A DNA stretch of 52,669 nt from positions 1-52,669 of the forward strand of contig JBBRUX010000026.1 in assembly GCA_038247415.1 (NCBI GenBank), given 5' to 3'. Below are positions 50 to 50,502 of this stretch, piece after piece; position 1 is the stretch's first letter, and each line of letters begins with the position of its first letter. A model generated the notes under the pieces. The model did not search any database. It was not told the origin of the DNA and saw only the letters and a list, made by a program, of their open reading frames with translations. The DNA comes from Chitinivibrionales bacterium (GTDB lineage: Bacteria > Fibrobacterota > Chitinivibrionia > Chitinivibrionales > WJKA01). A program made the translations under genes and the position numbers.

Positions 50-352
50 TCAAACGGGATTTATACTTCCATCTTGGAAACTTAAACATGTACCCTGACG
101 TTTCTCTATGAGAAAATCACCCGAAAATGTCTGAAGCACCAGTTTTATAAACAGGGAAATTTTAAGAGACGAGATTGTTTTTCCTGCGATACTATCACCA
201 CAGTAGCTGCGCGTGTTGGACAATCCAAGCTTTTTGCAGATATATGCTTTGGTAAACTCTTGATCAACACTATGGCGATAATCATAGTAATCGCATAGAT
301 AAGCTCTGAAATTATTATAGTCGTAGATAACGGGTTTTTCGTTCATATTCAT
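50..352 (-). pseudogene. TIGR02147-family protein, N-terminal fragment only
   Basis: Start 'PVIYDYNNFRAYLCDYY' parallels 'PSIFDYTDYREYLRDFY' of the 6273-7151 paralog. Similarity ends after ~70 aa (near nt 140); the paralog is ~290 aa. Confidence 0.7.
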
Positions 353-704
353 TTCATTGTCTTAGGTTGTATTCGATCAATACAGGTGCGACTCTTACAA
401 TTGTCTTCTGTTATAAGAATAGCTCATAGCAGGCGATACTGCAACCTACTGGATGTGCATTTATTTGAGTACATTGCTATAACCCCTGCAACTCGATGTG
501 CAAAATACACGATGGAGCCAGAAATAAAGTCCAAAAATGGCACAAGCAGCATAGAATGTGGCTTTTAACAGTTCCTGTAAACGTGCCTTGCGCGGGATCG
601 AACGTAGTGGATTGGCGTTCTTATTCGGTGAATTCTCGCCGTAAACTCGCACCGCAGGGGATTTTATGCTGTTGCGGAATTTTTTTAAGATAGAAAACTA
701 TATA

Positions 705-737
705 GGGAAAGCCACAAACATGCGTTTCTGGCTTCCC
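705..737 (-). terminator. Putative intrinsic terminator of the ArsR/CoA-disulfide reductase operon
   Basis: Imperfect stem GGGAAAGCCA...TGGCTTCCC about 20 nt past the stop at 759. Confidence 0.45.
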
Positions 738-758
738 ACAACAAAAAAAACATACTTA

Positions 759-3209
759 TTAGACAAAAATATTATAGTTGGCACCATCCGCTTTATCGAG
801 ATAATACGAAACACCGCCAAATTCGATACCATCAATAAGCTCTTCCTTTTTTATTCCCATGATATCCATTGACATCGTGCAAGCAATCATTTTGATACCA
901 TTTTTTTGAGCGGCAGCCATAAGATCAGGCAGCGATATAACATTTTTCTTTTTCATCTCCATCTGCATCATCATGGTACCCATGCCTCCCATATTCATCT
1001 TCGAAAGCGTAGTTTTTTTAGCACCCCGCGGCATCATCATCGAAAACATAAATTCGGTAATTGATTTTTTAACCTTAACGGCGGCATCTTTACGCAAGAG
1101 ATTGAGTCCCCAAAAGGTAAAAAAGAGGCAGACTTCACTTCCCATTGCTACAGCGCCATTTGCAATAATAAAAGCAGCCATCATTTTATCGAAATCATTT
1201 GAAAATATCACCATTGTTTTCCGATTTTGACCACTTTCCGGCACTTTGCAGACATCGCGCGTTCCCCCTTTTTTAACAACGGCACTAAAGATACCATCTT
1301 TTTGAACCAGTGAAATAAGGGAATTATTGGTTCTAACGCACCACGCAGGTACATCGGCCGCAAAGCCCTGATCTGTTGCACGAATTTCGAGTGACTCTCC
1401 ATCTGCCAGTGAATCAACGCCCGTTTTAAGCTTCATGATAGGCCCGGGACATTGCATTCCGCATGCGTCAACAACTTTTGAAGGTGTAACAATCTGGGTA
1501 TCAACCGACACAGACGAACACGCGGCCTCTCGAACAGACTTGACATATGTTGAATCATAGCTTACCGTTTGCGCAGTAGAAAAAGTTTTGTATCCACCAG
1601 AAAGGTTTCGAGCTTTGAACCCATTTTGAAGCAGAATACGCGCAGCTAAATAGCCCCGCAACCCAACCTGACAATACACCATAATTTCTTTGCTCTTGTC
1701 GAGCTCTTGCAAACGACTCCGTAAAGCATCAATCGGAATATTAAGAGAATTGTCGATTGCACCTTGCTCATGCTCTAGCTTTGTTCGCACATCAAGAAGG
1801 ATTTGCGTGGCCGGATTTACAGAAGAAATATCTTCGGCATAAAAAGCACACATTTTTCCACGTAAAATATTTTCGGCAACAAATCCTGCCATGTTTACAG
1901 GGTCTTTTGCACTTCCATAAGGTGGCGCATACGCCAGTTCCAATTCCGAAAGATCAAAAACTGTCAAGTTATGACGAATCGCAGTGGCAAAAACATCTAT
2001 ACGTTTATCAACCCCATCCTTACCTATTACCTGAGCTCCCAAAAGACGTCCCGTAGCAGGATCAAAGAGAATTTTTATAGAAATCGGGAATGCACCCGGG
2101 TAATATCCCGCATGGCTTGATCCGTGAGTATACGATTTAACAAAAGGGATTGCCCATTTCCGTGCATTTTTCTCATTGAGGCCGGTAACCGCTGCCGTAA
2201 GATCGAATACCTTGCAGATAGCTGTTCCTTGAGTATTTTTATAGGTAGAGTCGATTCCGCAGATCACATCTGCAGCAATCCGACCTTGCCTGTTTGCGGG
2301 ACCAGCAAGCGGAACATGCACTTTTTTGCCAGAAATAAAATCCACGACTTCGCATGCATCACCAACAGCAAAGACATCAGGAGCAGAAGTTTTCATGGTA
2401 TTGTCAACAATGATGGTGCCCCGGTCGGAACATTCGATGCCGGAATTCTTTACAAATACAGTATCGGGTTTAACACCGATAGCAAGAATTATCAGTTCGG
2501 TTGGTATTCGTTCACCACTTTTGAGAATAAGCTCAGCTTTGTCGGCACCCATATCTTCTATGCCGTCTACCCCATCGGAGAGAATGAGCCGTACTCCGCT
2601 CATGGTCATATGCTGATGCAAAATGGTAGCCATTTCCTTATCTGCAGGCATAAAAACCTGATCCATAAGTTCAACGAGCGTAACATCCATTCCTCTATGG
2701 CGCAGGCTTTCGGCCATTTCTAAACCAATAAAGCCTCCGCCCACAACAACTGCTCGTTGAGCGCGCTTAGAATCTACATAGGCCTTGATTTTGTCGGTAT
2801 CGGGAATTGTTCTAAGAGTAAATACGATTGGAGAAGCAATGCCTTTTAAAGGCGGCTTAATAGGTGCGGTTCCTGGGGACAACACCAAAGAATCGTATGA
2901 TTCTGTAAACGTTGTTCCTTTATTCGAAACTGTAACTGTTTTGTTTTTTGTATCAATTGCAGTTACTTCGCATTCGGTACGAACGATAACATTAAATCGC
3001 TCTTTGAATTTTTGCGGAGTTTGAATTATGAGATTTTCGCGATCTTTGATTGTTTCCCCGATGTAATAGGGCAAGCCGCAATTGGCATAAGAGATATACT
3101 CCCCTTTTTCAAACATCACAATTTCTGCTTTTTCGTCTAGTCGTCTCAGGCGCGCTGCACAGCTTGCCCCACCAGCCACACCTCCAACAATCACGATCTT
3201 TTTAGCCAC
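759..3209 (-). CDS. CoA-disulfide/persulfide reductase fused to rhodanese, TusA(SirA) and DsrE-like domains
   Basis: GGVAGG FAD motif, SYANCGLPY redox Cys, GGGFIGLE, YAPPY; rhodanese YCQVGLRG; TusA DACGMQCPGP; DsrE FFTFWGL/ACTMSM. GTG start with AGGAG RBS. Confidence 0.92.
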   Translation of the reverse strand: MAKKIVIVGGVAGGASCAARLRRLDEKAEIVMFEKGEYISYANCGLPYYIGETIKDRENLIIQTPQKFKERFNVIVRTECEVTAIDTKNKTVTVSNKGTTFTESYDSLVLSPGTAPIKPPLKGIASPIVFTLRTIPDTDKIKAYVDSKRAQRAVVVGGGFIGLEMAESLRHRGMDVTLVELMDQVFMPADKEMATILHQHMTMSGVRLILSDGVDGIEDMGADKAELILKSGERIPTELIILAIGVKPDTVFVKNSGIECSDRGTIIVDNTMKTSAPDVFAVGDACEVVDFISGKKVHVPLAGPANRQGRIAADVICGIDSTYKNTQGTAICKVFDLTAAVTGLNEKNARKWAIPFVKSYTHGSSHAGYYPGAFPISIKILFDPATGRLLGAQVIGKDGVDKRIDVFATAIRHNLTVFDLSELELAYAPPYGSAKDPVNMAGFVAENILRGKMCAFYAEDISSVNPATQILLDVRTKLEHEQGAIDNSLNIPIDALRSRLQELDKSKEIMVYCQVGLRGYLAARILLQNGFKARNLSGGYKTFSTAQTVSYDSTYVKSVREAACSSVSVDTQIVTPSKVVDACGMQCPGPIMKLKTGVDSLADGESLEIRATDQGFAADVPAWCVRTNNSLISLVQKDGIFSAVVKKGGTRDVCKVPESGQNRKTMVIFSNDFDKMMAAFIIANGAVAMGSEVCLFFTFWGLNLLRKDAAVKVKKSITEFMFSMMMPRGAKKTTLSKMNMGGMGTMMMQMEMKKKNVISLPDLMAAAQKNGIKMIACTMSMDIMGIKKEELIDGIEFGGVSYYLDKADGANYNIFV

Positions 3210-3237
3210 AATAAACTCCTTATCATAAATAGGTTAC

Positions 3238-3549
3238 CTATTGCATAAGCGCATTTAAATATATTGTCTCTGTTTGCACGCCAACAAGTTGTTTTTCAAC
3301 TTTACCGTTTTTAAAAATGAGAACTGTAGGAATGCCTGTAATGCTGTATTTTGATGCTGTAAGCGGATTCTCATCCACATTCATCTTGAATACGTTTGCC
3401 TTGCCCGCAGTCTTGTTCGCAACCACATCAATAATTGGCCCAGCAAGCCGACACGGGCCACACCACGGAGCCCAAAAATCTACAAGTACCGGTAATTCAC
3501 TCGCCAACACTTCGGTTGCAAAACGCCCATCAGTAGTTTCTAAAGACAT
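3238..3549 (-). CDS. trxA: Thioredoxin
   Basis: VDFWAPWCGPCR, 103 aa, GGAG RBS. Confidence 0.95.
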   Translation of the reverse strand: MSLETTDGRFATEVLASELPVLVDFWAPWCGPCRLAGPIIDVVANKTAGKANVFKMNVDENPLTASKYSITGIPTVLIFKNGKVEKQLVGVQTETIYLNALMQ

Positions 3550-3594
3550 ATAATACTCTCCTCTTAAAATAGATAATACATTATTGAGATCCCG

Positions 3595-3990
3595 TCACTT
3601 AACAACAGAAAAACCGGCTCTAGTCCAAGCTCCAATACCCCCTGAGAGGTTTTCTACATTAGCAAAGCCCTTGTTTTTGAGCATACCAAAGGCCATTGCA
3701 GACCGGTTTCCCGAATGACAATATACTATAATACGTTTCTGCTTAACCGTATCAAGTTCCGAAATCCGAGAACTCAATTCTCCCACGGATATGAGCCTGC
3801 TTCCTTTTATATGCCCACTCTTGAATTCGCCATCCGAACGAACATCCAAAAACACAACGTTGGAATCTTTGAGCAATTCCGCTGCAGATGTAGGTGATAT
3901 GTTAGATGTGTTTCTTCTACTAAATACATTGAGCAGGATGAAAGCCACAACAATTACAATTCCAATCACAATTCCCGTTTGCATAATCAT
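3595..3990 (-). CDS. Membrane-anchored rhodanese-like sulfurtransferase
   Basis: N-terminal hydrophobic helix, LDVR...GHIKG, active-site loop YCHSGNRS, GGIGAW. Confidence 0.9.
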   Translation of the reverse strand: MIMQTGIVIGIVIVVAFILLNVFSRRNTSNISPTSAAELLKDSNVVFLDVRSDGEFKSGHIKGSRLISVGELSSRISELDTVKQKRIIVYCHSGNRSAMAFGMLKNKGFANVENLSGGIGAWTRAGFSVVK

Positions 3991-4031
3991 ACTCCTTGGT
4001 TAATTTGCCTCTATTACAATTAATATTAATG

Positions 4032-4214
4032 CTATCTTCCCCATCCACCAGCAAAAACTGCCCCAATTAATGAGCCGTAGAGCGTGCTTACATAAGGATT
4101 GCTTGTAATCGGACACGTACCCGACGAACAGCCTACAATTTTATAATACAAAAATCCTCCAATACCACCAATCACCACGCCCAAAACAATTTTTAAAAAC
4201 ATTAACCCCTCCAT
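4032..4214 (-). CDS. Small membrane protein, DUF6132-like
   Basis: Two TM helices flanking GCSSGTCPITSNP; operon context with rhodanese/thioredoxin. Confidence 0.75.
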   Translation of the reverse strand: MEGLMFLKIVLGVVIGGIGGFLYYKIVGCSSGTCPITSNPYVSTLYGSLIGAVFAGGWGR

Positions 4215-4227
4215 GTTTAAATATTAA

Positions 4228-4249
4228 TATATTCTTATATTCATATATA
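4228..4249. promoter_or_regulatory. Putative ArsR operator, copy 1
   Basis: TATATTCTTATATTCATATATA; 20/22 identical to 4571-4592; immediately upstream of the 4214 start. Confidence 0.6.
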
Positions 4250-4262
4250 TTCAAGAAAAAAA

Positions 4263-4526
4263 TCATCTCAAACTAGAAACAACATTTTTTGCATCTTCGT
4301 TGCATACCATATAAAGAATTTGATTTCCAACTCGTTCCCCCGAAAGAACGCCAGCAGCTTTAAGAATGTTAAGGTGCTGTGAAACCGTAGGCTGAGGAAC
4401 CTTGGTGCATTCAACCATTGCCGCAACATTTTGTTCACCCGCCATTAGGCCCTCTACGATGCAAAAACGAATAGGATGTGCAAGAGCCTTGAGAATCGCA
4501 GCTTTTTTTTTGTGGTGGATGTTCAT
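4263..4526 (-). CDS. ArsR/SmtB-family repressor (possible persulfide sensor)
   Basis: LKALAHPIRF..., VSQHLNILKAAG winged HTH; three Cys; heads the sulfurtransferase operon. Confidence 0.9.
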   Translation of the reverse strand: MNIHHKKKAAILKALAHPIRFCIVEGLMAGEQNVAAMVECTKVPQPTVSQHLNILKAAGVLSGERVGNQILYMVCNEDAKNVVSSLR

Positions 4527-4755: not shown

Positions 4756-6114
4756 TCAACCAATTAAATTCTTCCCATTGGTTTTAATAACCGACCGATA
4801 CCAATGCGCAGAATCCTTTACAATTCGTTGTTGAGTTACATGATCAACATAAATAAGCCCAAATCGAGGAAAATAGCCTTCTGCCCATTCGAAATTATCC
4901 ATGAGCGACCAATGGAAATAGCCTCTGATATCTATGCCATCATTTGTTGCTTTTAAGAGAGTAGTTAGATATTTTTGGGTAAAATCAATTCTTTGGGGAT
5001 CATGAACTTTCCCATCCTGAGAGATCACATCGGTAAGTGCCACACCATTCTCTGTAATGTAAATAGGAAGTTTGTAACGCTCATAAAAAAACTTGGGGCC
5101 ATAATAGAGAGCTTCTGGCTCTATGCTCCAATGCATCAATGTTCGCGGCATATTAATAGGCTCAAGAAAAAATTCATATCCCCCATCCAAAGCAGCGCGA
5201 ACTTTTCTACCACTATAAATATTGGCGCAAAAATAATCGAGCGGCTGATGAATGATATCCATGTCACCGGATTGGACAAACCCAAGATATGGTGCATTAA
5301 CCTTTAAGCCATTTTTTGGATATTCCCCCAAATAAACAGGATCCATCCACCATGCGTTTGTAACTCCTTCATGCATCGGTGTATCAAATGTTGCAAGACG
5401 GGCTACATTGATAGCATCGACAGCATTAGTTTCCGGAATATTGACACAACCAACTGGTGCAAACCCAACCTTGCATCCAGGTTCCCCATACATGCGAATT
5501 GTTTGAACTGCATTTCCATGAGCGAGCAAAACATTATGCGACATGCGCAACAATTCGGCCCAATCATGATGTTCACCTGGTGCATGTACGCCGCTGTTAT
5601 ATCCTAAATGAATGAAGGCTTGCGGCTCATTAAAGGTAATCCAGTTTTTTGCCCGATCAGAAAGCTTTTCAATAACAATGCGTGTATATTCTGCAAACCA
5701 GTTACTGACATCCCTATTAAGCCATCCTCCCCGATAATGAAGTTCCAGTGGCAAATCCCAATGATACAGAGTAATAAAGGGGACAATTCCAGCTTCAAGC
5801 AGATTATCAACAAGTTTGGTATAAAAATCTAAACCTTTTTGATTTACCGTACCTGTGCCGTTGGGTAAAATTCGAGGCCATGAAATTGACATACGGTATG
5901 AATTAAGACCAACCTCCTGCATAAGCGCGATATCTTGACTAACTCGATTATAATGATCACAGGCATTGGTTGCATCGTGGTTATTCCAGATCGTTCCTTT
6001 TTTCTGAGAAAAATAATCCCATACCGACAGCCCTTTTCCATCTGTGTCCCAGGAACCTTCAACCTGAAACGCACATGTTGAGGCTCCCCATGCAAAATCG
6101 GGATTAAAGGCGAT
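4756..6114 (-). CDS. GH1 beta-glucosidase; homology extends to an ATC codon at 6114
   Basis: TFNEP and ITENG catalytic motifs. The frame stays open upstream of ATG 5922 with AFNPDFAWGASTCAFQVEG...ACDHY. AAGGA RBS lies 6 nt before the ATC, with an in-frame TGA just upstream. Confidence 0.85.
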   Translation of the reverse strand: MAFNPDFAWGASTCAFQVEGSWDTDGKGLSVWDYFSQKKGTIWNNHDATNACDHYNRVSQDIALMQEVGLNSYRMSISWPRILPNGTGTVNQKGLDFYTKLVDNLLEAGIVPFITLYHWDLPLELHYRGGWLNRDVSNWFAEYTRIVIEKLSDRAKNWITFNEPQAFIHLGYNSGVHAPGEHHDWAELLRMSHNVLLAHGNAVQTIRMYGEPGCKVGFAPVGCVNIPETNAVDAINVARLATFDTPMHEGVTNAWWMDPVYLGEYPKNGLKVNAPYLGFVQSGDMDIIHQPLDYFCANIYSGRKVRAALDGGYEFFLEPINMPRTLMHWSIEPEALYYGPKFFYERYKLPIYITENGVALTDVISQDGKVHDPQRIDFTQKYLTTLLKATNDGIDIRGYFHWSLMDNFEWAEGYFPRFGLIYVDHVTQQRIVKDSAHWYRSVIKTNGKNLIG

Positions 6115-6272
6115 GATGTTTCCTTTTCAAAATTTTAGATTCAATTAAATCGCTACTTTGAGCAATGAATAAAATAGACCATGCCCTGCATCACAAAAAC
6201 CGAGTAACATGAATGTGACCAATAAGTGTACCATTGTGACGATGCTCTTTCCATCGAATGAATGCGAATCTT

Positions 6273-13165: not shown

Positions 13166-13169
13166 TGCT

Positions 13170-13787: not shown

Positions 13788-13811
13788 ATCAGCCTGCACT
13801 ATCTTTTTTTG

Positions 13812-17084: not shown

Positions 17085-17438
17085 ATGAGAACTTATCAAA
17101 ATGGTCACCATGGGAAGCAATCTTACCGGTTTTTTAGATTTGGCGAAGAACCAATACACCCCTTGGAAGTCCCTATTGCAGTGCATTCACAGTGGGATAC
17201 AATGGACTTTCACGAAAGAGTAAACGCTGCCGAATTTTGGATTGAATTTGTTACCGCTGGAGAAATCATATTTACACAAGACACTCAAACGTATACCATT
17301 TTACCCGGGATGCTATTCTTAGCGAGACCTGGAACCACACACCATTTTTCTGTTGGCAAAAAAGGATTTGCCTGTAAACGTTCGATCTGCCTTCAAGGAT
17401 TATGCCTTGAAACTACTCTTCACTCACCAGCTGCCTGA
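17085..17438 (+). pseudogene. AraC-family regulator, N-terminal sensing (cupin) domain only
   Basis: IEFVTAG...YTILPGMLFLARPGTTHHF; ends at 117 aa inside the 3' end of the convergent gene; no HTH; divergent from GH31. Confidence 0.7.
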
Positions 17439-18673
17439 CAAGTCGTAAAAATAGCCAAATGCATAGCCCGTGCATAAAAATTTACCTGTACCGGTGATTC
17501 CCCCTCTAAATGGCATTCCAAGAAGTAGAATTTCAGCACCAAGTCGCTCAAAAGATAAAGCAGCATCAAGTTTAAATTGACGTACGTACGTAGATCTAAG
17601 GCTGTTATCTGGCATTTCGGTTGGTAAATCGTTCGAAATATAATCAAATACTGTTGAGTAAATGATTTTAACTTTTCGTGTTCCAAAAAAGTTCTTGATG
17701 CTTGTTGTATCAGCTATTCCTGTTTCAACATCATAGGTGATTGCTGTAGGGAAATCAGAGGGAGTTGCACTCAGATTCATTACTCCTGCAGGAATAGAAG
17801 GATTTACCCAAATATGAGCAGCCGATCCTGAAAAAAACTTCCCATTATTAAATTTGAAAACTTTTTTATCTGATACTCTAATTACATAACCATTTACATT
17901 GCCCACCACCATTTGCCCTATCAAATTCAAAAATTCCATGCAATCTCTAAGATTTACAGTATCCGGGGATGCCGAAACATTGCACATTTGCCTCCCGCGA
18001 TTAATTGATGTTATTCCGGAAATTAATGCACCACCTTGAACTGCATCTGTCTGAACCGAACGTCCCATACCATTAACAGCGCAAATTTTATAGCTATAAA
18101 TATTCTTTTGCAAACAGGCTGTATCAAAATACTCTATAGTAAAGACTTTACCAATGCTATCATAAGTGTTCGAAGTAGCATTAAGCCGAAATACTATAAA
18201 ATAAATGCCATCCGCATAAGGAGGTTCCCAGGTAAGCATAATGCTGGATTTAGAATATCCTTGAGCCAACAAATTTATTGGAGCATCTGGCAATTTTAGT
18301 TCGAGTATTAAAGCGGAACCCATAATTGCGATAGTTTCAACAGAACGCCCTACCCCATTGACTGCACAAATCTGTACTTATATACTTTTGATTGCAAGCA
18401 GTTTGTATCGATGTACTCGGTAGTAAAAGCTATACCAATGCTATCATGCACGTACGAAACGGCATTAGGTTTAAACACTATAAAATAATCAACATTTGTA
18501 GACTTAGATCCCCAGCAAAGTTTAATGCTCGTTGCAGAATTTCCAGTTGCCGATAAATTGATTGGAGCATCAGGAATGACCTGCACAGGAACAACACTAT
18601 CCGACCCTTTGCAGCCTAAAAAGAAGGATACATAAATACAGCCTAAAATGCCTAGTAGATATATTTTTCCCAT
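17424..18673 (-). pseudogene. Lipoprotein with tandem FN3 domains, frameshifted near 18372
   Basis: Lipobox FLGC; two PDAPINL..W..Y repeats. Restoring 1 nt turns YKYRFVQ into YKYxICAVNGVGRS, matching repeat 2 (YSYKICAVNGMGRS) and joining both ORFs. Confidence 0.8.
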
Positions 18674-19039: not shown

Positions 19040-19421
19040 TCAGCTGGTTTTCCACTTCTTGAGTTTAACGATCTTCTTAACAGGCCGCTTTTTAGCGGGA
19101 ACAGCTTTTTCTGCCAAAACGGCAGGCAGTTTTTTTGGCGGGCGTCCACGCTTTCGCTTCTGGATGGTTGCGTCATCCTTGACGGGAGCCGGTTTTTCAC
19201 TTCTTGGGCATGAATCGTCAATGTCAATCCCAAAGAGGTCCGAAAGCTCTTCCTTTGGTGCGGCAATGATCCGAGCGCTTTTTGTTTTAGCGCGCGAAAG
19301 AATTTTTGTGCTCTCCTGCTTCACCATTGCGCCAACAAAGGTTTCGACCTTGATTCCCCTCAATGTAAAGAAGAGCTCCGGACGATTATCGAGCCGTGCC
19401 GAAACCCCATAGAGCGTTGCG
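19040..19421 (-). pseudogene. C-terminal remnant of a SWIM zinc-finger protein
   Basis: ATLYGVSARLDNRPELFFTLRG follows CKH in SNF2-associated SWIM proteins; LSDLFGID and a basic tail are present; the Zn finger is missing. Confidence 0.75.
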
Positions 19422-21891
19422 CTTTTGCCCGATACGATAGGCACGGTCGGTGGCTTGATTTTCAACTGCCGGGTTCCACCAGCGGTCGAAATGGATCACA
19501 TGGTTCGCTTGTGTCAGGTTGAGTCCCACGCCTCCGGCCTTGAGGGATAGGATAAAGTAAGGCACATACCCTACGCCGTTCTGGAACTGCTCGACCGCCT
19601 CCTTGCGCGCTTTGATCGAGGTTGATCCACTCAGGTGCACACCAGAAGCGCCAAAGAGCGATTCAAGATACGTGTGCAACGGATCGATTATCTCGGCAAA
19701 TTGTGTGAACACAAGGACTTTTTCCCGTTTGTCTCGAATGGTTTCGCACAGCTCGGCCAACCGGTCGAACTTGCCGCTACGCTCCGGATCGTAACCACCA
19801 GAGCCTGCGTAGTGATCGGGGTGATTGCAGAGTTGTTTACATTTAGTGAGATACCCCAGCACGATTCCCTTGCGCTGGATGCCCTCAACCTGCCCGAGCT
19901 CCCTTTCGAGGGCGAAAACGACTTCCCGGTAAAGCGAAGCTTGCCACTTTGACAATGTGTAGTAGGTCTTCATTTCCACCTTGCCGGGCAGATCATTAAT
20001 AATTGACTTATCGTACTTGACGCGCCGAAGAATGTAAGGATGCACGACCTTGCGCAAACGACCGTATCCTTCTGGATGATCGTTGAGTGTCTTGGCAAAA
20101 CGCTTGAATTCGGTGAATGTTCCCAGTAGCCCAGGATTAATAAAATTGAAGAGAGACCAGAGATCGGTGATCCGATTTTCCACGGGCGTTCCGGTCATCA
20201 CAAGGCGATGCGCACTTTTAAGATCCTTGACGGCAAGAGTTTGTCGGGTAGAGGGATTCTTTATCGCCTGCGCCTCATCGCAAATAATATAATTCCAGGT
20301 CCGTTTCGAAATCCAGGCGCTACGACTCAGCATTGCATAGGTGGTTATAGCGATGTCGCACGAGTCAATTACACTTTCGCTCTCATCAAACAACCCAGCC
20401 TGAGGGTGAATGATGACAGCTTTGAGATCGGGGGTAAATTTTTGTACTTCGCAATGCCAATTGTAAATTAGTGATGCAGGCACCACGATGAGGCTACAAC
20501 CGCCCTTGATTTTTTGCAAGAGTGCAAGAACCTGCACCGTTTTCCCCAAACCCATATCATCTGCAAGGCAAATGCCAAAACCAAGCGTATGAAGAAAGAA
20601 AAGCCAGTTGAGTCCCTGCTGTTGATAGGGGCGTAAGTCTGCCATGAGCGCGCTGGAGGGTGCTATGGAGCGAACGAGCGTCGGGTTTGTCATCTTATCG
20701 AGTATCGATTGTAGCCATTCGCCGCACCCGATCTGGGCTCCGGGAACCAGTAGATCGCTTTCAGTTTCTGTGCCCATCAGCATTCGCATTGCATCAGCAA
20801 ACGTGAGACCTTGAGACCGGGAAAGCGCTTTCGCTTGCGCGAAGGCTTCAAGCGTTTTTTTGAGTGACGCAGGATCGAACGCCACCCACTTGCCCTTAAT
20901 AAGCGCGAGTCCGGCGGATTGTTCCAGAAGGCTCTGAACTTCCGCCTCCGTCAATTCTATATCATCGATCTGTATCACCGGGCAAAAGTCGAGTAGAACA
21001 TTAACGCCGATTTTTGTTGGCGTGCCATTGCCCAGCCGAAGTGTTACCCCAGACTTTCGCACCCCCCGCCACCATCGCGGGATGCGGCACAGGATGCCGG
21101 CTTCTTCATAGGAAGGCACACCGCGCAGAAATTCGAACGCCTCACCTTGTGTCAACTAAATTGGATTAAAGAGCTCACCTGATGCATCAAAGGTGGCAAT
21201 AAGAGTGTTGTTTTTTGCCACTTTCTTGACAGTAGCAAGTAGTTCGAGGAGCTTTACCTGATCTTCACCAAATTCCTGTAGTGCCGATTTGAGAGGTAGA
21301 TGACGCACGCGCCCGTTCGCATCGATACGTACAGTGTAGGTTGCCAGGAATGCAAAAGGGCGTGATTCGTTCTTGCGGTTTTCGACAAGATGAAAGTGGA
21401 TCCGGTCGATATGGCGCGGCTGCGGCGTAAGCGACTCGAACCAGGCTTCCACAGAGCCTGCGGATTTTTTTATGGCCACCTGAAAATATTCGTTCAACCG
21501 CATCCAGAGCGCATTCAGAAACTCTAGAGTGATATGTTCAATGCCGGTCATTGATGGCATTATGTCAATAGTCGACTGAATGTGGCTATGGTCGGGATCA
21601 ATTGAAAAGGACTCTCTTTTTGTTTCACTTTCGGGATTAGTTCGAATACAGCAAACCCCAGGCAGCGGCGAAAGTACGCCAAAAATCAAGCGAAGGCGAA
21701 AGGGCGGTTGCAGTGTCGCAAAGCCCCAGCACTATCAACCAGTGTGGGACAGAGCTGTGACCTCCCTTTTCTATATCAAGCAGCATCGATTCCAGTCGTC
21801 GACGATGAGGATTTTCGGTGAGGGTGCACTCTTCCCATTCAAGCGCGATATGGCCGTCAAAGAAGATCGAGGCGTTAAGAATATTAGACAT
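19415..21891 (-). pseudogene. SNF2-family DEAD/H ATPase/helicase, disrupted three ways
   Basis: LADDMGLGKT, DEAQ, TGTPVEN, QATDRAYRIGQ. Extra G in GGGG at 21656-21659, in-frame TAG at 21156-21158, and C-terminus lost after GQKRN. Confidence 0.88.
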
Positions 21892-22028
21892 TGCAATAAA
21901 ATACTATTTAGTCGGGTTTGAAGGATTTGCAGCAACATTTATTCTTCAGGTATAGTCGCCAATTTTTTGGCATTTTCACCGATACAAAACATATCGTTTT
22001 GCCCGCGCCTTGCCGACCATAAGGTAGA

Positions 22029-30045: not shown

Positions 30046-30366
30046 ATGTATAAATTTCTCGTAACGGTTGCCGCCTTGCTTGGGCTATCGATGAGCAGCA
30101 CTGCTTCGACGATCGCATGGATTGAATCGGATTTTTCTGTTCCCCTACTGATTACCGCCAACGATTCAGGTGCGATAGCAAGACAGCTCAATCTTGCCCC
30201 GAGTTCTCAGCCGCAAGGATTAGCCTACGATTCTGCGTTCAACAAATTGTATTGGACGGAACTCATATTTGCAAATGCACGAATATTGTCTGCGCCAGGG
30301 ACATACATTTGTCGGATGCAATCTGAGGAATTTGTAAAATCTGTGCGATACTCAGTTGTTCGTTGA
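30046..30366 (+). pseudogene. Secreted beta-propeller-like protein collapsed by internal deletion
   Basis: Signal peptide and one YWTD-like blade (PQGLAYD..NKLYWTE) joined directly to the last strands of a sorting tail (PGTYICRMQS). Confidence 0.65.
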
Positions 30367-37017: not shown

Positions 37018-37058
37018 GAATAGACATTTCCGCATTACCTTTAAAAGAAAGAATAAAA

Positions 37059-37339
37059 ATGACTCAAGACGAAAATCAATTTTTAGATGCGTTGCAGAAT
37101 ATTGAATTTGCATTAAAGACTCAATACGAATCCAATGAAAATCTAACAGATTCAAAAGTTACTATTGCATTGGAAAATGCAACAATCGATGTAAAGAAGG
37201 CTTTTGGTTTTGCAAAAAAAAACTAATCGATGATCCAGCTATTGAGGAAATACTTAAAATTTGTGTCGATATAGGAATGGAAAGAATTGGCAAAATTGAT
37301 AATTTAACACTAAAAGAATATTGCACTTCGAGCTCATGA
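37059..37339 (+). pseudogene. Hypothetical protein, frameshifted in an A9 run and probably 3'-truncated
   Basis: MTQDENQFLDALQNIEF...GFAKK stops just after A9 (37214-37222); protein-like LIDDPAIEEILKICVDIGMERIGK continues in a shifted frame. Confidence 0.55.
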
Positions 37340-37479: not shown

Positions 37480-38005
37480 TTATGGATTTACTACCATCCT
37501 CAAGCCAAGAAATAATTCTTTCCCCTGCGAACGAACAGTCACGGAATAAATGCCAGCCTTCAACCCGAAGCTATTAATATCCTGATATTTCAAAGCATTC
37601 ATGATTGTCTTAACGGTCATACCGACGGTAGTACGGATGATAATCTCACTGCCCTTAACAAAAGATTAATTGACAAAATGGCTAGAGTCCGCTTGATTCA
37701 ATCCGATCGGCTTGTCGGCGTAATCATTTTCGCAAGCATTTTGCTCATCAGCATAAAAGATATACTCTTTGTCCGCCAGGCATTTTGAATAACCGAACGT
37801 TGTGGGAATTTCCTTATAGTCGATGGAATAGCTGCCATGTGGTGGTAAGACCCGCACTATCCACCGAGTCGTTTATCCGGCCATGAGGCTGCAGCAAGAG
37901 GGCTCCGGTTCCATCCGTAGAGCGGATGTTTCTCGCTACAATTCCCGTTGTCATGCCTTTTGATCCACCGCTGGTAGTCGGGACCAAGGCCACGTCGGCC
38001 CCCAA
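37480..38005 (-). pseudogene. Decayed secreted protein with sorting-tail remnant
   Basis: Fragmented frames; after a stop at 37666 the frame resumes to LKAGIYSVTVRSQGK...VVNP*. Confidence 0.45.
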
Positions 38006-38414: not shown

Positions 38415-39116
38415 TTACTTGAAATTCTCTGCCGACAATCCATTCTTTTGTGCAAACTCTTTCCCTTCGGCTGCCCAAATAAATCCTCGTTTCATGATTT
38501 CGAGTGGCTCTGGTGCATCAAAGATGTCGGCATGGTGCCCTAATGAACAGTAGAATACCCGGCCAGCTGCCCACTTTTTTGTCCATGCAACAGGCATTTC
38601 AACTGTCCCGTTCGGGGAGTGCTACCAGGCGACATTCGGAAATGTGGTTGTTGCCAACACCGTAACTGCTGGATCTACATGCAGGTAATAGTGCTCGGAC
38701 TTTACGATGTAGTTTTCTATTCCATCAAGTACAGATGCACATTCTTTCTTGACATTGACAGAGTAGGTTACACCATCACCTCCCGGGTGCGATACCCAGT
38801 TGCCGCCGGTCATGAATTGCCACTGCACACTTTCGCGAAATGCATCGCACATACCACCATGACAACCTGCCATACCGGTGCCGTTTGCCACGGCTTCGCA
38901 TACGGCGTTTTCCTGCTCTCCCGTTAATTTGCCCATTGTCCATATCGGAACAATCAGATCGAGCTGTTTAAGCTTTTCCCCATCATTAAATGAATCTAGA
39001 GTTGTGGAAATCTCAACTTCAAAACCACTTTTAACAAGTGTTGTGTTGAAGACATTTGCCACTTTGTCCGGCTCATGGCCATCCCATCCGCCCCATACAA
39101 TAAGAGCTTTTTTCAT
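38415..39116 (-). pseudogene. ThuA-like domain protein with a premature TAG
   Basis: [36 protein letters not shown] in one frame, interrupted by TAG at 38622-38624. Confidence 0.88.
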
Positions 39117-39120: not shown

Positions 39121-39747
39121 TTACCACTCCTTTCCTTCGACAAGTCCGGCAGGCAGCGCCATTGGTTTGTCGCAGGTTGATGTAAGATGAATTGCTTTTC
39201 CGTTTTTTGAGGACTCTTCGAATGACACCATGACATCGAGAATATGTGCAGCCATAATGCCGGATGCCCGTAATGGGCGTTTGTTCTGGATGGCAAGCGC
39301 CATATCCGCAACGCCGATTCCTCGCGAGTTGTCTCCGTAGCTATGACTTGACAGAGAAACATCAACCCAGTCGGTATCATTGTGTCGGCGAATTTTTACC
39401 GGCCCACCAAATCCGTTGGGATCGGGAACCAGGAGCGATCCTTTGGTACCATGAATTTCTATGCGCGGTACGGTTGACGCCCACACATCGAAGCTCATGA
39501 CCATGGAGTTGACTTTCGCATGCAGTTCCGGTGTGGTAAGGTTGACCACTATGTCGATATCTTTGCGGGCTAGGAGCTCCTCGGTGGTACAACTGGCTAT
39601 ATTGAACTCTTGTGCCTTTGCCAAAGAGCGTTCAGCTGAAAGGTCGGAGCACGCAACAACGGTTACCCACGGGAATCGTTTGGTAAGATTTGTAAAGTAT
39701 ATGCTGCTGATGTTGCCACACCCGACAATACCGATTCTGGTTATCAT
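39121..39747 (-). pseudogene. Gfo/Idh/MocA oxidoreductase with an in-frame internal deletion
   Basis: IGIVGCGNIS...VNLTTPELH joined to MSFDVW..IEIHGTKG at ~39505. The AGKHVxxEKP motif and middle third are absent (208 aa vs ~360 typical). Confidence 0.85.
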
Positions 39748-40726: not shown

Positions 40727-40753
40727 ATCATAGAAATTGTGAGTGGTGAGCCC

Positions 40754-41130
40754 ATGTCAATCGCCATTGCATCGCCGGGCACCTATTACCTCAGGCTTCA
40801 TTGCGGTGCCGCGAATTCATCGCAGAGCTATTCCCTACAGATCGCCTCTCCTGGAGTAGCTATTGTCAATCGCAAGGATCAATTTCGGTAAATTCTCTGC
40901 TTAGTCCGGCGAATAGCAGGATCAGGTTCAGTTTGGCAAAGGCGGGTTACACGACGCTGAAGGTATATGATATGCAGGGAAAAACGGCAGCCACGCTTGT
41001 AGCCGGAAATCTTAAGGACGGCTCTTATTCTATTCAGCTGCAGGCATCGGCCTTTCCGTGCAAAGCATATATATGTCGATTGCAGAGTGGCGCCTTCGAC
41101 GCGACAAAACTTCTTACGTTTACGCACTAA
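40754..41130 (+). pseudogene. 3' remnant of a secreted protein (PPC-like strand plus sorting domain)
   Basis: PGTYYLRL..SYSLQI, then in a shifted frame IRFSLAKAGYTTLKVYDMQGK...AYICRLQSG; no 5' part or signal peptide. Confidence 0.65.
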
Positions 41131-41327: not shown

Positions 41328-41946
41328 TCACCAATTCTGAACAATTCTTCCTAACCGATGATTCTTCTCATCAACCCGTATCCGCACTCCCGACGCATCC
41401 GGACTTCGGTTGTGTGAAGGTGCAGCTGCGATTACCGGCCGTGGGATAAATCGTCCTGAAATGTCGAAATCTACAGCCTTTACATCTGAGTTTATCCCCG
41501 CATATTTAGGTACACTTTCCCTATTGGCAACAGCCCCACCGGTTGTTTTAAAAGTCTGATCGACACCATAATAGGTTATTCCCCCATTGGGCGTAAAAGT
41601 AAACCGCCAATGATATACAGTTCCCGGAGTAAGAGTAAAAGGCGACCAATCATCCCAGACACTTGCATGGATTCCCTACCCCCGAAACTACAACGTGAAC
41701 GTAATAGGTCGAATTTGGTGAGGGTTTCCCTGCATTGGGATCGGCATTAAAGCCTACGTAGGTTCCAACACCATATTCTACATTCCCAATAATGCAATTA
41801 TTTGTGAGATTCTCCTTGATCGCTCCATCATACCACGATAGCGCGGCTCTCTTTTCGAGCCCGTTGGGTGCGCTTACGCCGGGTTGGGCAAAGACCGTTG
41901 CTAAACAAAATAGTGGAATCATTTGAATGAAAACTCTTAGTCTCAT
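41328..41946 (-). pseudogene. Secreted protein with an internal deletion and a frameshift
   Basis: AGGAG RBS and signal peptide; frame switch at ~41665 to FN3-like LTPGTVYHWR; frameshift at ~41580 to TYYGVDQTFKT; tail FDISGR. Confidence 0.65.
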
Positions 41947-45393: not shown

Positions 45394-45422
45394 ATTGCAT
45401 AGAACACTTTATAGTACATAGC

Positions 45423-45460: not shown

Positions 45461-45753
45461 TTAGAAAAGGTACGCGTTATGTCACCTCATAAAGGGTCGA
45501 ATATTTTAATGGTTCTTCGTGGATTGTAGTCGACTCAGACAGCCCTGCAAACCGGTTTCTTGGTACTGGATGGAATGATGGATTGTATAATAGTCGGGTA
45601 ACACCTTCAGAAGACAAATGCGCATTTAATACATTTGAAAAGACCGGATTATAGGGAATTATTGTTTAGCTTATTTGCATTTGGGAGCAGGTTTGTGCTC
45701 CCCTATTACGACGCTAGCCAAGAGTTTGGGTTACTTTCGAAAGGCGGGAACAA

Positions 45754-45950
45754 TTACCGTCTTGATAAGAGCTGCAAGACGAGGCAGCTCTTTGGCAAAC
45801 GCTGACCAGCAGCATTCACAGCAAGTCGGCCCGATGATCTCCCAAAGTCGTGCGGTGCAATTTTGCCAGCACATGCTAGCGGTTCCGTAGCTGTTGCTCC
45901 GTACTCAAATAGCCCACTATCAGGCTTGCTTCCCTGAAACGGAAGCCCCC
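45754..45950 (-). pseudogene. 3' remnant of a secreted (PL9/beta-helix-like) protein
   Basis: GLPFQGSKPDSGLFEY resembles the GLPxxGxxPDLGAFE terminal motif; short tail VNAAGQR. Confidence 0.4.
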
Positions 45951-45989
45951 ACAGTTGAGTTGGAAATCTCAATAGATATTGGGCTATTG

Positions 45990-46470
45990 TCAGCAACCAG
46001 AGCGTGAACTGTAATAGTGACCGACATCTTTAAATTCTTCACGAAGCAGGAACTCAGCTTCACGGTATAGCGCCGCGTACTCGTCAAGAAAACACTCTCT
46101 GATATTCATCTCAACTGAGCGGTTCTGATTAAAAAACCGCATGTACAGCGGAATTCCGCCGCACAGGAAATAGATTCGGGCTTTGTCTTCGAGCGAATAG
46201 CCGGGATGAAAAAGCCCAGATTCGATAAACGAAAATGGTTTTAACAATATCTGACCGGTTCTTCTGCCGTACAACGGGCTTTTTGCTCCAAGAACCTCCC
46301 GTTCCATGAACCCGATATACGATCCGCAGAGAAGCAGCACCATGCTCCCTGCTTTGCTCGACTGCATGTCCCAGAGCTGCTGCAGGACCGAGGGAAGCTC
46401 TGGACTTGATTCTACCATCCATTGGTATTCATCAAGCGCCAGCACGATCTTTCCGCGCGCATCGACGTTC
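45990..46470 (-). pseudogene. Internal fragment of an archaeal-type AAA ATPase (DUF234-associated family)
   Basis: LALDEYQW, LQQLWD, LCGS, SPLYGRRT, GGIPLY; Walker A and C-terminal half absent. Confidence 0.8.
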
Positions 46471-46657
46471 GCACAAACCGTTTCAAAATGTGATTTCATG
46501 ACGGTAAGCGAACAGGCAAAGAGCACCACGGATTGGCAATCGTTGACCTCGATGCGATATGTTCCCGGATCCACTCCGCTGATCTCGAATTATAAAGCCC
46601 TGAATCAAGAGAATCAGAAAGTAATCTTTTGGCAGTTAGAGCGGTGTCTCCATGACG

Positions 46658-49285: not shown

Positions 49286-49399
49286 ACCTGATCTCCCTTT
49301 TAATAACTATGGTGATTGCAGCACAAAGAATTCACCCCTTACCGGCACCACATTTCGATAAGCGTTTTTAGATGCTCATCGGTGCATGAAAGCATTGCT

Positions 49400-49710
49400 A
49401 ACGAGTGTAATTGGAACAATAAAGCAATATCCGAGCCAGAAGCGAGATACAGCGCACATCGCTCTTTTGCGGCGAATAAACTCATAAGAATTAGAATCTG
49501 CGAGGATCTGCGTGGTTCACAATTCGCAATAATGCGATGCGCTGTGAAGTTGATTTTCGAATTTGACGAAATCAAACGCGGCGGAAAGGGGCAGGGTTTT
49601 GCTGAGGGCGAAGATTACGATATACATGCTTCGACACAGCTTTTCACAATACTGGATCGAAGGAATGCGCAGAGCCGATCATGTTAAGTTGGGCATTCTA
49701 GATTTATCCC
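49400..49710 (+). pseudogene. Highly decayed tyrosine recombinase/integrase remnant
   Basis: Ordered motifs DLRGSQ (like GLRxSE), GGKG (49580), KITIYMLRHSF (~49612-49643) and frameshifted LG/GHS (~49690). Confidence 0.5.
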
Positions 49711-49877
49711 TTCCATTTTACAAAAAGCGATCACGCAGCATGTATGCGAAGATTTTGCAAATATCAAGATCCTTTTTTCCTGTATTCTGCCGAATACGCC
49801 TTTTTTACGAACTGGTCTGATTGTCAGTGGCGGTAGAGTGTCTTATAAAACAGGAACTGTCTTTACATGGAGGACTT

Positions 49878-50502
49878 ATGCGCACAATTCTAAAACCTGC
49901 CTTCTTGTCGTATCACATCCGCCCCGGCGCATCGTATGTGTGTACTCTGTCGGTAATTTCCAGCGGAACCTGTTCACCGCTATCGCACCTCATCATCCGT
50001 TGCAAATAGCGAAATCAATCTGCTTTACTGGAGATAATTATTGGCAGTCACAAGCGCTACCGGATCGTACGTAATAGACAGCGTACCAGTAATCGGTGTC
50101 AGCTCCCGCGGCATGGTTGTCGCCATGCGTGGCAGCGAGACATTGGCCATCGACACTATCACCTTTCTTCCTGGCAGCACTATCATAAAAAACTTCATTG
50201 TTTCCTCTATAACAATTTCTGCATCACAACCAATGCCGAACAAAAGACGTTCTGGACCAAGTATATTTACATTGAGCTATCGTGGAAAAAACCAAATCGT
50301 CGCATCATTCAACAATTTATCGCACCCGGGCCATTTAACACTCTTTGATGCATCGGGAAAAATTGTTGCTCAAAAGGCTTTCGCCGTTCATTCGGCACCC
50401 ATTGTTATTTCTTGCGGCACATTGGCAAAAGGTCCGCTTTTTGCACTTTTATCAAACGGAAGCAAGACTATCTGGCGCACAATAGTCGTTGTCGGCAATT
50501 GA
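49878..50502 (+). pseudogene. Secreted protein with sorting tail, 5' half frameshifted and stopped
   Basis: GGAGG RBS with ATG 49878 (MRTILKPAFL); broken frames to 50040; intact 3' part TSATGSYVIDSVP...LTLFDASGKIV. Confidence 0.6.

What the first reader, a model, noticed from the sequence alone, without database searches (positions are those of the whole stretch)
50..50502. Pervasive gene decay in a Fibrobacterota-like genome
Seen: about 20 broken genes or remnants among about 27 intact genes. Lesions include nonsense codons (21156, 38622), 1-nt frameshifts (18372, 21657, 37218, 41580) and large deletions; no transposase is recognisable. Known: such pseudogene density typifies lineages in early reductive evolution. 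Inference: this may be a host-restricted or bottlenecked member of a phylum known mainly for gut and free-living polysaccharide degraders. Losses fall on secreted accessory proteins, regulators and SNF2/ATPase genes.
Basis: partly seen in the sequence, partly recalled or inferred. Interest (0 to 1): 0.75.

Follow-up and report, generated by a model that had tools for sequence, protein, structure and literature searches.

The report
Cluster of decaying genes, Fibrobacterota contig
This 52.7-kb contig from a poorly sampled Fibrobacterota-like bacterium really does carry many broken genes and gene stumps among its intact genes, but one contig cannot show whether the whole genome is decaying.

Summary
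The observation largely holds, though the count is too high. The window is a whole contig. It has 27-28 intact-looking genes.

Of the six named lesions:
- Confirmed in place and type: TAG nonsense codons at 21156 and 38622, and 1-nt frameshifts at about 18374 and about 21650.
- Plausible but unverifiable: 37218, an A9 run in an orphan ORF.
- Wrong in type and place: 41580. The real lesion is a 177-codon internal deletion with a frame change at about 41661.

Two lesions suggested by profile coordinates or by an in-frame stop turned out to be intact genes: the trehalase and the split CoA-activase pair.

Intact genes cover about 63-65% of the contig, broken ones 18%, and 16% is unassigned. I found no transposase, no repeat family, no stop-codon recoding and no fall in GC in the broken genes.

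The lesions range from very recent (SNF2 has 2 lesions in about 2.5 kb) to near-erased stumps, and they fall on accessory genes. Decay is concentrated after 16.7 kb; the first third of the contig is nearly normal.

The decay looks real and has been going on for some time. Genome-wide reductive evolution or host restriction cannot be tested here. A local graveyard of dispensable, possibly foreign genes fits about equally well.

The parts
50..352 (-). Stump of a TIGR02147 (Fsuc_second) paralogue. It is 100 codons long, matches only profile positions 4-65 of 272, and ends with a stop at 50-52, just 49 nt from the contig end.
   Evidence: NCBIfam E=2.7e-12, below the curated cut-off. It aligns to the first ~75 residues of the intact paralogue at 6273-7151 at 33% identity. 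No continuation is visible in any frame.
4756..6126 (-). GH1 beta-glucosidase. The frame is open for 456 codons, but there is no ATG, GTG or TTG before 5922. ATC ATC sits after AAAGGAAAC where the start is expected. This is either start-codon loss or a rare ATC start.
   Evidence: Pfam and NCBIfam matches start at profile positions 67 and 63 for the ATG-started ORF. The L039 GH1 aligns from 6108 to 4774 in one frame. Sequence read.
17085..17438 (+). 117-aa ORF with only an AraC_binding/cupin domain and no HTH. It is either an AraC stump or an intact stand-alone cupin; status uncertain.
   Evidence: Pfam AraC_binding E=4e-5. The nearest Atlas clusters are stand-alone proteins of 108-137 aa.
17424..18673 (-). 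Lipoprotein gene with two FN3-like repeats, split by a 1-nt frameshift at about 18374. The downstream part also lacks two blocks (about 57 and about 88-97 residues) that are present in its only homologue.
   Evidence: Internal repeat at 52% identity. The frame switch is mapped to 18374-18376. P0002 (402 aa, 63% identity) aligns in three blocks: residues 32-79, 137-231 and 320-401.
19088..19423 (-). C-terminal remnant of the SWIM-type partner gene that follows this SNF2 helicase in other genomes. The first ~170-180 codons are gone.
   Evidence: Downstream ORFs of 69 of 80 loci match only this stretch, through their residues from ~170 onward. There is a weak Pfam SWIM match in the L001 and L041 versions.
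19386..21894 (-). SNF2-family helicase pseudogene (DUF3670 + SNF2 + Helicase_C). It is nearly full length and has two lesions: a frameshift between 21647 and 21658, and a TAG at 21156-21158.
   Evidence: Pfam. tblastn of L001, L004, L005, L029 and L080 homologues. In the alignment the TAG falls at a G/A/Y column.
30046..30366 (+). Possible internally deleted secreted protein: a signal peptide, about 60 residues, then a tail that resembles the end of a sorting domain. Weak, by eye only.
   Evidence: Translation. No TIGR04183 match at E up to 10.
37059..37336 (+). Orphan small ORF downstream of vapC. It is broken at an A9 run (about 37210-37218); its two pieces lie in adjacent frames.
   Evidence: Sequence and translations. 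The homologue search found only the ORF itself.
37483..37872 (-). Possible remnant of the C-terminus of a secreted protein, with an in-frame stop. Weak, by eye only.
   Evidence: Translation. No family match.
38418..39116 (-). ThuA-family gene with an in-frame TAG at 38622-38624.
   Evidence: Pfam ThuA profile positions 1-160 (E=1.5e-28) and 165-209 (E=3.7e-13) lie in the same frame on either side of the TAG. Read-through with X.
39121..39747 (-). Short Gfo/Idh/MocA oxidoreductase of 208 aa. It has an N-terminal Rossmann part and only a weak trace of the end of the C-terminal domain. The middle, about 140-150 residues, is probably deleted in frame.
   Evidence: Pfam GFO_IDH_MocA positions 2-81 of 120 (E=1e-7), and the C-terminal domain positions 114-216 of 218 only at E=0.037. 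PDB chains of 357-367 aa match only residues 28-107.
40750..41127 (+). Isolated T9SS C-terminal sorting domain. It is the tail of a secreted protein whose body is gone; the araC-type gene ends at 40726.
   Evidence: Pfam Por_Secre_tail E=0.016. TIGR04183 E=0.0066, comparable with the tails of intact proteins in the window at 0.014 and 7e-4.
41331..41946 (-). Secreted-protein gene with a 177-codon internal deletion and a frame change at 41660-41662.
   Evidence: P0154 (378 aa) residues 1-101 map to 41946..41662 in frame -2, and residues 279-377 map to 41660..41376 in frame -3. P0152, P0161 and P0190 agree.
45480..46589 (-). Eroded AAA ATPase (Pfam ATPase_2, PADLOC PDC-S27-like). The N-terminal ~92 profile positions are missing, and the recognisable part is followed by several stops and frame changes.
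   Evidence: Pfam profile positions 93-221 of 225. PADLOC PDC-S27 positions 93-253 of 474, E=5.8e-25. Translations.
50038..50499 (+). Probable isolated T9SS sorting-domain remnant.
   Evidence: TIGR04183 E=0.076, below the cut-off. Translation.

Best explanation
The contig carries a real excess of dead and dying genes, produced by ordinary mutation. The lesions are two TAG nonsense codons, single-base frameshifts, a probable start-codon loss, and deletions both in and out of frame. Insertion sequences played no part.

The lesions span all stages of erosion:
- Nearly full-length genes with one or two lesions: SNF2, ThuA and the FN3 lipoprotein.
- Genes with large internal deletions: the P0154-like secreted protein and Gfo/Idh/MocA.
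- Multiply disrupted fragments: the AAA ATPase.
- Stumps of about 100 codons: the SWIM partner, T9SS sorting tails and TIGR02147.

They hit dispensable genes: T9SS cargo, a helicase/SWIM pair found across many phyla, an ATPase that resembles a candidate defence protein, and a sugar-oxidoreductase pair. Operons in the first 16.7 kb are nearly untouched.

Shown: the lesions themselves, their spread of ages, and the absence of IS elements and of recoding.

Inferred: these genes are under relaxed selection and dead DNA is removed slowly, so decay has run for a long time in this stretch. Whether this is local turnover of accessory or foreign genes or a sample of genome-wide decay stays open. On the present evidence I lean slightly to the local reading.
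For: - Homology maps each lesion.
- TAG ends 7 of 28 confident genes, TAA 12 and TGA 9, so stop codons are not recoded.
- No transposase appeared among 60 ORFs and 213 extra segments. There is no repeat family beyond chance-size pairs.
- Intact genes cover 62.8% of the contig (plus 2.6% for GH1), broken ones 18.3%, and 16.4% is unassigned. Ten spacers between intact genes exceed 300 bp.
- SNF2 has only 2 lesions in about 2.5 kb and still aligns end to end at 44-56% identity. The neighbouring SWIM gene has lost about 170 codons.
- By my count, 9 of 36 gene-like sequences is 25%. The published background is 1-5%, and M. leprae reaches 36.5% (PMC522871, abstract and section 6 read).
- For the local or foreign-gene lean: relatives of SNF2 at 46-59% identity occur in many phyla. 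GC3 of SNF2, SWIM, Gfo, one sorting tail and the ATPase is 0.50-0.56, against a mean of 0.41 for intact genes. Only 2 of the 15 candidates lie in the first 16.7 kb.
Against: - No reads were available, so none of the lesions is checked against raw data.
- One frameshift lies in an A9 run and one in a G4T3 context. Such runs are error-prone in some sequencing chemistries (my knowledge, not a call).
- Several calls rest on a single homologue of 37-63% identity. The two internal gaps in the FN3 gene could therefore be insertions in the homologue.
- The GC3 difference between broken and intact genes is not significant (p=0.096).
- No tRNA, integrase or other island boundary marks the decayed stretches.
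- The crude long-ORF cover of 0.73 is matched or undercut by 4 of 56 ordinary loci.
- Profile coordinates misled me once, on the trehalase, so the Gfo and AraC calls, which lack close homologues, may also be wrong.
Confidence: 0.55

Rival explanations
1. This is genome-wide early reductive evolution. The organism is host-restricted or bottlenecked, selection is weak everywhere, and this contig is a typical sample of a genome with an M. leprae-like pseudogene load.
For: - The local pseudogene fraction is 25-34% and intact coding is 63-65%. The published background is 1-5% (PMC522871).
- Stumps and long unassigned spacers are retained, which suggests slow purging.
- Lesions of many ages imply a long-running process.
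- Metabolic genes are also affected: GH1 start, ThuA and Gfo.
- The lineage is scarcely sampled. The best protein relatives are 50-63% identical, and one family has only 2 members among 5.8 billion sequences.
- The best SNF2 relative is from Chitinispirillaceae, a family with a clade described as endemic to termite guts (bioRxiv 10.64898/2026.10.06.756956, passages read).
Against: - Only one contig was seen.
- The first 16.7 kb, with 14 genes, is almost intact.
- GC is not low (0.43) and the broken genes are not AT-shifted.
- There is no IS expansion, which I recall as typical of early stages in Shigella or Sodalis.
- Long-ORF cover lies within the range of ordinary loci.
- The termite-gut paper has 0 occurrences of pseudogene, coding density, genome reduction or frameshift in its main text.
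- Nothing ties this contig to a host.
Confidence: 0.3
2. This is a sequencing, assembly or binning artefact. The lesions are consensus errors, collapsed strain variants or chimeric joins in a metagenome assembly.
For: - The window is a whole draft contig.
- One frameshift sits in an A9 run and one in GGGGTTT.
- No read data could be consulted.
Against: - Two clean in-frame TAG substitutions, a frameshift outside any homopolymer (about 18374), a 177-codon deletion and stumps of about 100 codons are not typical base-calling errors.
- There are no repeats that could drive mis-joins.
- The 27 other genes, up to 1051 codons long, are uninterrupted in the same assembly.
Confidence: 0.1
3. This is recoding rather than decay. 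The in-frame TAG codons are read through (a suppressor, or pyrrolysine-like), or the frameshifts are programmed, so the genes are functional.
For: Both confirmed nonsense codons are TAG.
Against: - TAG terminates 7 of 28 confident genes.
- The SNF2 TAG falls at a variable G/A/Y column.
- Recoding cannot explain the deletions and stumps.
- No tRNA gene lies on the contig.
Confidence: 0.03

Closest known systems
Massive gene decay of the Mycobacterium leprae type
   Same: There is a high local share of pseudogenes: 25-34% here, against 36.5% genome-wide in M. leprae (PMC522871, section 6 read). Intact coding density is low, and lesions include point mutations and deletions.
   Different: Only a 52.7-kb sample is available. 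The first third of the contig is normal. There is no evidence of host restriction. The broken genes are accessory rather than spread across all functional classes.
Early host-restriction decay (Shigella, Sodalis glossinidius)
   Same: Many genes carry just one or two inactivating lesions and are still nearly full length (SNF2, ThuA, FN3 lipoprotein). 'Gene decay as an incipient stage of host adaptation' is the theme of PMC3218036, which I saw only in a search listing.
   Different: I recall that those cases show marked IS expansion. No transposase or repeat family was found here. Old stumps sit alongside fresh lesions, so this is not only an early stage.
Failed horizontal transfers as a source of prokaryotic pseudogenes (Liu et al. 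2004, PMC522871)
   Same: The broken genes are accessory. The SNF2/SWIM pair has relatives at about 50% identity across many phyla, and several broken genes have higher GC3 than most intact genes.
   Different: The compositional difference is not significant (p=0.096). No integrase, tRNA or other island hallmark was found. Lineage-specific secreted proteins (T9SS tails, TIGR02147) are also affected.

Membership tests
Genome in reductive evolution (pseudogene-rich, host-restricted lineage) | Pseudogene fraction far above the 1-5% background across the whole genome | not testable with these tools
   Locally the fraction is 9 of 36 to 14 of 41 gene-like sequences. Only one contig is available, and its genome is absent from the genome collection.
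Genome in reductive evolution (pseudogene-rich, host-restricted lineage) | Low intact coding density (about 50-75%) | tested here: inconclusive
   Intact genes cover 62.8-65.4% of this contig. The first 16.7 kb is dense, and cover by ORFs of at least 150 aa (0.73) is matched or undercut by 4 of 56 ordinary loci.
Genome in reductive evolution (pseudogene-rich, host-restricted lineage) | IS or mobile-element expansion (early stage; feature recalled, not from a call) | tested here: not met
   No transposase family passed threshold in 60 ORFs and 213 segments. No repeat families were found.
Genome in reductive evolution (pseudogene-rich, host-restricted lineage) | AT-biased drift, with dead DNA more AT-rich than live genes | tested here: not met
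   GC is 0.459 in broken genes and 0.438 in intact ones. Only the unassigned DNA is lower, at 0.395.
Genome in reductive evolution (pseudogene-rich, host-restricted lineage) | Loss of repair and recombination genes; host association | not testable with these tools
   No such genes lie on this contig, and no metadata were used.
Failed-HGT or accessory-gene graveyard in an otherwise normal genome | Broken genes are compositionally atypical | tested here: inconclusive
   Mean GC3 is 0.451 in broken genes and 0.406 in intact ones, Mann-Whitney p=0.096.
Failed-HGT or accessory-gene graveyard in an otherwise normal genome | Broken genes belong to accessory, widely exchanged families | tested here: met
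   SNF2 relatives at 46-59% identity occur in Desulfobacterota, Bacillota, Nitrospirota, Planctomycetota and others. The ATPase resembles PADLOC candidate PDC-S27. T9SS cargo tails are affected.
Failed-HGT or accessory-gene graveyard in an otherwise normal genome | Island hallmarks (tRNA, integrase, flanking repeats) | tested here: not met
   There are no tRNA genes, no integrase or transposase and no flanking repeats.
Fibrobacterota | Lineage-typical paralogous families (TIGR02147, TIGR02148 fibro-slime) and T9SS sorting tails | tested here: met
   TIGR02147 scores E=9.3e-80 at 6273-7151, with a stump at 50-352. TIGR02148 scores E=3.3e-31 at 24079-25539. TIGR04183 is present at 50636-52261. 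No marker-gene phylogeny was possible.
Alternative genetic code or stop-codon recoding | The recoded stop is not used as a terminator | tested here: not met
   TAG ends 7 of 28 confident genes.

The most novel reading that the evidence does not exclude
The contig is a fair sample of its genome. On that reading, a deep-branching, barely sampled Fibrobacterota lineage is undergoing IS-free, deletion-dominated, M. leprae-like gene decay. This would be the first reductive or host-restricted genome described in a phylum known for free-living and gut fibre degraders. Searches for Fibrobacterota or Fibrobacteres with 'pseudogenes', 'genome reduction' or 'gene decay' listed no such report (titles and abstract openings of the listed papers seen only: 3 of 4, 12 of 37 and 10 of 449 hits). 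In that case the T9SS cargo and helicase/SWIM losses would record which functions became dispensable first.
Probability: 0.27. Interest if true: 0.7.

Novelty: new member of a known kind. Interest (0 to 1): 0.4.

Why it matters
If the decay is genome-wide, it marks a change of lifestyle (host restriction or a severe bottleneck) in a phylum where none has been described. It would also offer an IS-free example of early-to-middle genome erosion, with lesions of graded age that show the order in which functions were lost.

If it is local, it is an ordinary though unusually dense graveyard of accessory genes. It still matters for annotation. At least 9 "genes" on this contig would be miscalled as short hypothetical proteins, while two apparent truncations are in fact intact genes.

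Tried and rejected
1. Trehalase 9498-10760 as an N-terminally truncated gene. Pfam starts at profile position 77, and the PDB match begins at chain residue 104. Rejected: the 120 best homologues are 399-458 aa long and cover 93-99% of the query.

2. CoA-activase pair 31720-34875 and 30451-31716 as one gene split by TAA. They share a frame, and a fused 1445-aa homologue (L026) aligns across the stop. Rejected as a lesion: the stop lies in a variable linker and is followed by ATG, and the nearest Atlas clusters are stand-alone proteins of 426-437 aa.

3. TAG recoding. Rejected.

4. An M-box or other leader RNA to explain the 750-nt gap upstream of mgtA. There was no Rfam match at gathering score on the whole window, nor at E up to 1 on 49200-50100.

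5. IS, MITE or repeat-mediated rearrangement. Only chance-sized repeat pairs were found.

6. A home-made three-sequence HMM of sorting tails. It was uninformative: it scored even the Pfam-supported remnant at E=8.7.

7. A promoter and terminator scan of 36-52.7 kb. Counts equalled those from shuffled sequence.

8. The listing of cluster members for ten window proteins.

9. Homologue search for the orphan ORF at 37011-37223. It found only the ORF itself.

10. The AraC_binding-only ORF. The Atlas shows stand-alone clusters of similar length, so I downgraded it from remnant to uncertain.

11. PDB search of ThuA read through with X. No match.

Full report
WHAT THE WINDOW IS

The window has 52,669 bases, no N, and a GC content of about 0.43. 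The protein search lists 52,669 as the longest contig carrying the window's own proteins, so the window is a complete draft contig.

It looks Fibrobacterota-like:
- It has one intact TIGR02147 paralogue (6273-7151, E=9.3e-80) and a stump of another.
- It has a TIGR02148 fibro-slime protein (24079-25539) and T9SS sorting tails.
- The best relative of its SNF2 helicase, among 600 confirmed matches of which the best 80 were kept, is a Chitinispirillaceae MAG at 59% identity.

The genome itself is not in the species-representative collection. Its proteins have no close relatives: the best trehalase homologue is 52% identical, and the FN3 lipoprotein family has only one other member, at 63% identity, among 5.8 billion sequences.

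HOW I CHECKED

- I listed ORFs and chose a non-overlapping set.
- I scanned 60 ORFs and then all 213 remaining stop-to-stop segments of at least 40 aa against Pfam.
- I scanned 61 ORFs and segments against NCBIfam.
- I fetched 80 SNF2 loci and mapped their ORFs back on the window with tblastn.
- I used the three homologue searches, the one exhaustive search and the two Atlas calls on the most doubtful cases.

THE SIX NAMED LESIONS

- 21156: confirmed. TAG at 21156-21158 interrupts an SNF2 helicase that otherwise aligns end to end with five homologues. The TAG falls at a variable G/A/Y column.
- 21657: confirmed. L001 residues 24-103 map to 21894..21658, and residues 107-858 map to 21647..19410 in a different frame. 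The switch lies in ...TGGGGTTTGCTG....
- 38622: confirmed. ThuA profile positions 1-160 and 165-209 lie in one frame on either side of TAG 38622-38624.
- 18372: confirmed. The gene encodes a lipoprotein signal and two FN3-like repeats. Repeat 2 aligns to repeat 1 at 52% identity down to about 18375 and then continues at 70% identity in the next frame from 18374. This site is not a homopolymer.
- 37218: plausible only. Two small + strand ORFs downstream of vapC would be joined by a 1-nt change in an A9 run, but the ORF has no homologue other than itself.
- 41580: wrong in type and place. The frame is open across 41580. Full-length homologues found by the exhaustive search (365-378 aa) show that residues 1-101 and 279-377 abut at 41660-41662 in different frames. 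That is a 177-codon internal deletion.

OTHER BROKEN GENES

Well supported:
- A TIGR02147 stump at 50-352, matching profile positions 4-65 of 272.
- The SWIM-type partner gene that follows this helicase in 69 of 80 loci. Here it is reduced to its last ~100 codons at 19423..19088.
- A 208-aa Gfo/Idh/MocA gene that keeps its N-terminal Rossmann part and little else.
- An isolated T9SS sorting tail at 40750-41127. Its TIGR04183 score (E=0.0066) matches the tails of intact proteins in the same window (0.014 and 7e-4).
- An AAA ATPase fragment at 45993-46589 covering positions 93-253 of a 474-position PADLOC profile, followed by stops and frame changes.

Moderately supported:
- GH1. The frame is open for 456 codons, but ATC ATC stands where the start should be, just after AAAGGAAAC.
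- A sorting-tail-like remnant at 50038-50499, with E=0.076.

By eye only: 30046-30366 and 37483-37872.

The FN3 gene also lacks two blocks that are present in its only homologue. With a single homologue, I cannot tell a deletion here from an insertion there.

CORRECTIONS IN THE OTHER DIRECTION

- The trehalase looks N-terminally truncated by Pfam and PDB coordinates. It is in fact full length for its subfamily: all 120 best homologues are 399-458 aa long.
- The CoA-activase pair is in one frame across a TAA, and a fused 1445-aa protein aligns through it. However, the stop lies in a variable linker, an ATG follows two codons later, and stand-alone clusters of 426-437 aa exist. I treat it as a natural two-gene form.
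- The 117-aa AraC_binding ORF may be a stand-alone cupin.

HOW MUCH, AND IS IT MORE THAN CHANCE

- Intact genes cover 62.8% of the contig (65.4% with GH1), broken genes 18.3%, and 16.4% is unassigned. Ten spacers between intact genes exceed 300 bp.
- There are 9 to 14 broken genes among 36 to 41 gene-like sequences, or 25-34%. Liu et al. report a background of 1-5%, and 36.5% for M. leprae (PMC522871, abstract and section 6 read).
- Against a 5% background the binomial p is 5e-5 for 9 of 36. This ignores that the contig was chosen for looking odd and that pseudogenes cluster.
- In the crude control, cover by ORFs of at least 150 aa is 0.73 here against a median of 0.83 in 56 comparison loci of at least 10 kb, and 4 of the 56 are as low or lower.
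- The excess is real but not beyond anything seen in ordinary genomes. It is also uneven: only 2 of the 15 candidates lie in the first 16.7 kb.

WHAT IT IS NOT

- Not recoding. TAG ends 7 of 28 confident genes.
- Not IS-driven. No transposase was found and no repeat family.
- Not explained by structured RNAs or tRNAs.
- Probably not base-calling error. Only one frameshift lies in a long homopolymer. Substitutions to TAG, a 177-codon deletion and stumps of about 100 codons are not typical errors, and 27 other genes of up to 1051 codons are clean. Without reads, this stays an inference.

HOW IT MOST LIKELY CAME ABOUT

The lesions form a series of ages. SNF2 has two lesions in about 2.5 kb and no others. 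By my rough reasoning, not a computation, this implies very recent inactivation. Its partner gene has already lost about 170 codons, the ATPase is multiply disrupted, and several genes survive only as tails. So genes in this stretch have been dying over a long period, and dead DNA is removed slowly.

The victims are dispensable:
- secreted T9SS cargo;
- a helicase/SWIM pair with relatives of about 50% identity in many phyla;
- an ATPase that resembles a candidate defence protein;
- a ThuA/Gfo pair.

Broken genes are not AT-shifted (GC 0.459 against 0.438). Several have GC3 of 0.50-0.56 against a mean of 0.41 for intact genes, although the difference is not significant overall (p=0.096). That pattern fits the "failed horizontal transfer" source of pseudogenes described by Liu et al. 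at least as well as it fits genome-wide erosion.

VERDICT ON THE INTERPRETATION

The inference of a host-restricted or bottlenecked lineage in early reductive evolution cannot be tested on one contig.

My estimates are:
- about 0.55 that this is genuine decay, best read for now as relaxed selection on accessory genes in this stretch, with the wider scope left open;
- about 0.3 that it samples genome-wide decay;
- about 0.1 that artefacts account for much of it.

LITERATURE

Searches for Fibrobacterota or Fibrobacteres with "pseudogenes", "genome reduction" or "gene decay" listed no report of a decaying genome in this phylum. I saw only the titles and abstract openings of the listed papers (3 of 4, 12 of 37 and 10 of 449 hits).

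A 2026 preprint on termite-gut genomes describes a Chitinispirillaceae clade endemic to the guts of higher termites. The words pseudogene, coding density, genome reduction and frameshift each occur 0 times in its main text (passages read). Its supplements were not consulted.

WHAT STAYED UNCHECKED

- Read support for any of the lesions.
- The rest of the genome.
- Close relatives.
- The content of the 8.6 kb of unassigned DNA.

Noticed in passing
window 759-4526 (-): An apparently intact sulfur-handling operon. It holds an 816-aa fusion of CoA-disulfide reductase with rhodanese, TusA and DsrE-like domains, followed by thioredoxin, a rhodanese, a DUF6132 protein and an ArsR-type regulator.
   Followed up: no
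window 36326-37017 (+): An intact VapB/VapC-type toxin-antitoxin pair (TIGR00028 E=1.2e-24 for VapC). It sits at the edge of the most eroded stretch, and the orphan ORF with the A9 frameshift lies directly downstream.
   Followed up: partly
window 19088-21894 and loci L001-L080: The SNF2 (DUF3670) helicase is followed by a 240-390-aa partner gene in 69 of 80 loci from many phyla; two of three versions scanned with Pfam (L001, L041) show a weak SWIM match. The helicase domain scores against PADLOC ZorD and DpdE models, but the partner matches no PADLOC model.
   Followed up: partly
window 17424-18323 (-) and P0002: The C-terminal domain of the FN3 lipoprotein belongs to a family with only two members (the window's own protein and P0002) among 5.8 billion sequences in the length range searched.
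   Followed up: partly
window 46658-50037: An intact MgtA-type Mg2+ P-type ATPase (TIGR01524, 1162 bits) has about 750 nt of unassigned upstream DNA. No M-box or other Rfam match appears there, even at E up to 1.
   Followed up: yes
window 10921-14723: A compact, intact glycan-modification cluster: a GT2 glycosyltransferase, a DUF2079 membrane protein, a SAM methyltransferase and a convergent formyltransferase-like gene. The formyltransferase match starts only at residue ~102-128.
   Followed up: no
locus L080 (Fibrobacter sp. MAG), 747-1586 and 4872-5729: Two TIGR02147-like paralogues, 25-28% identical to the window's copy, lie within a few kb of that genome's SNF2 gene. This echoes the presence of the family on this contig.
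   Followed up: no
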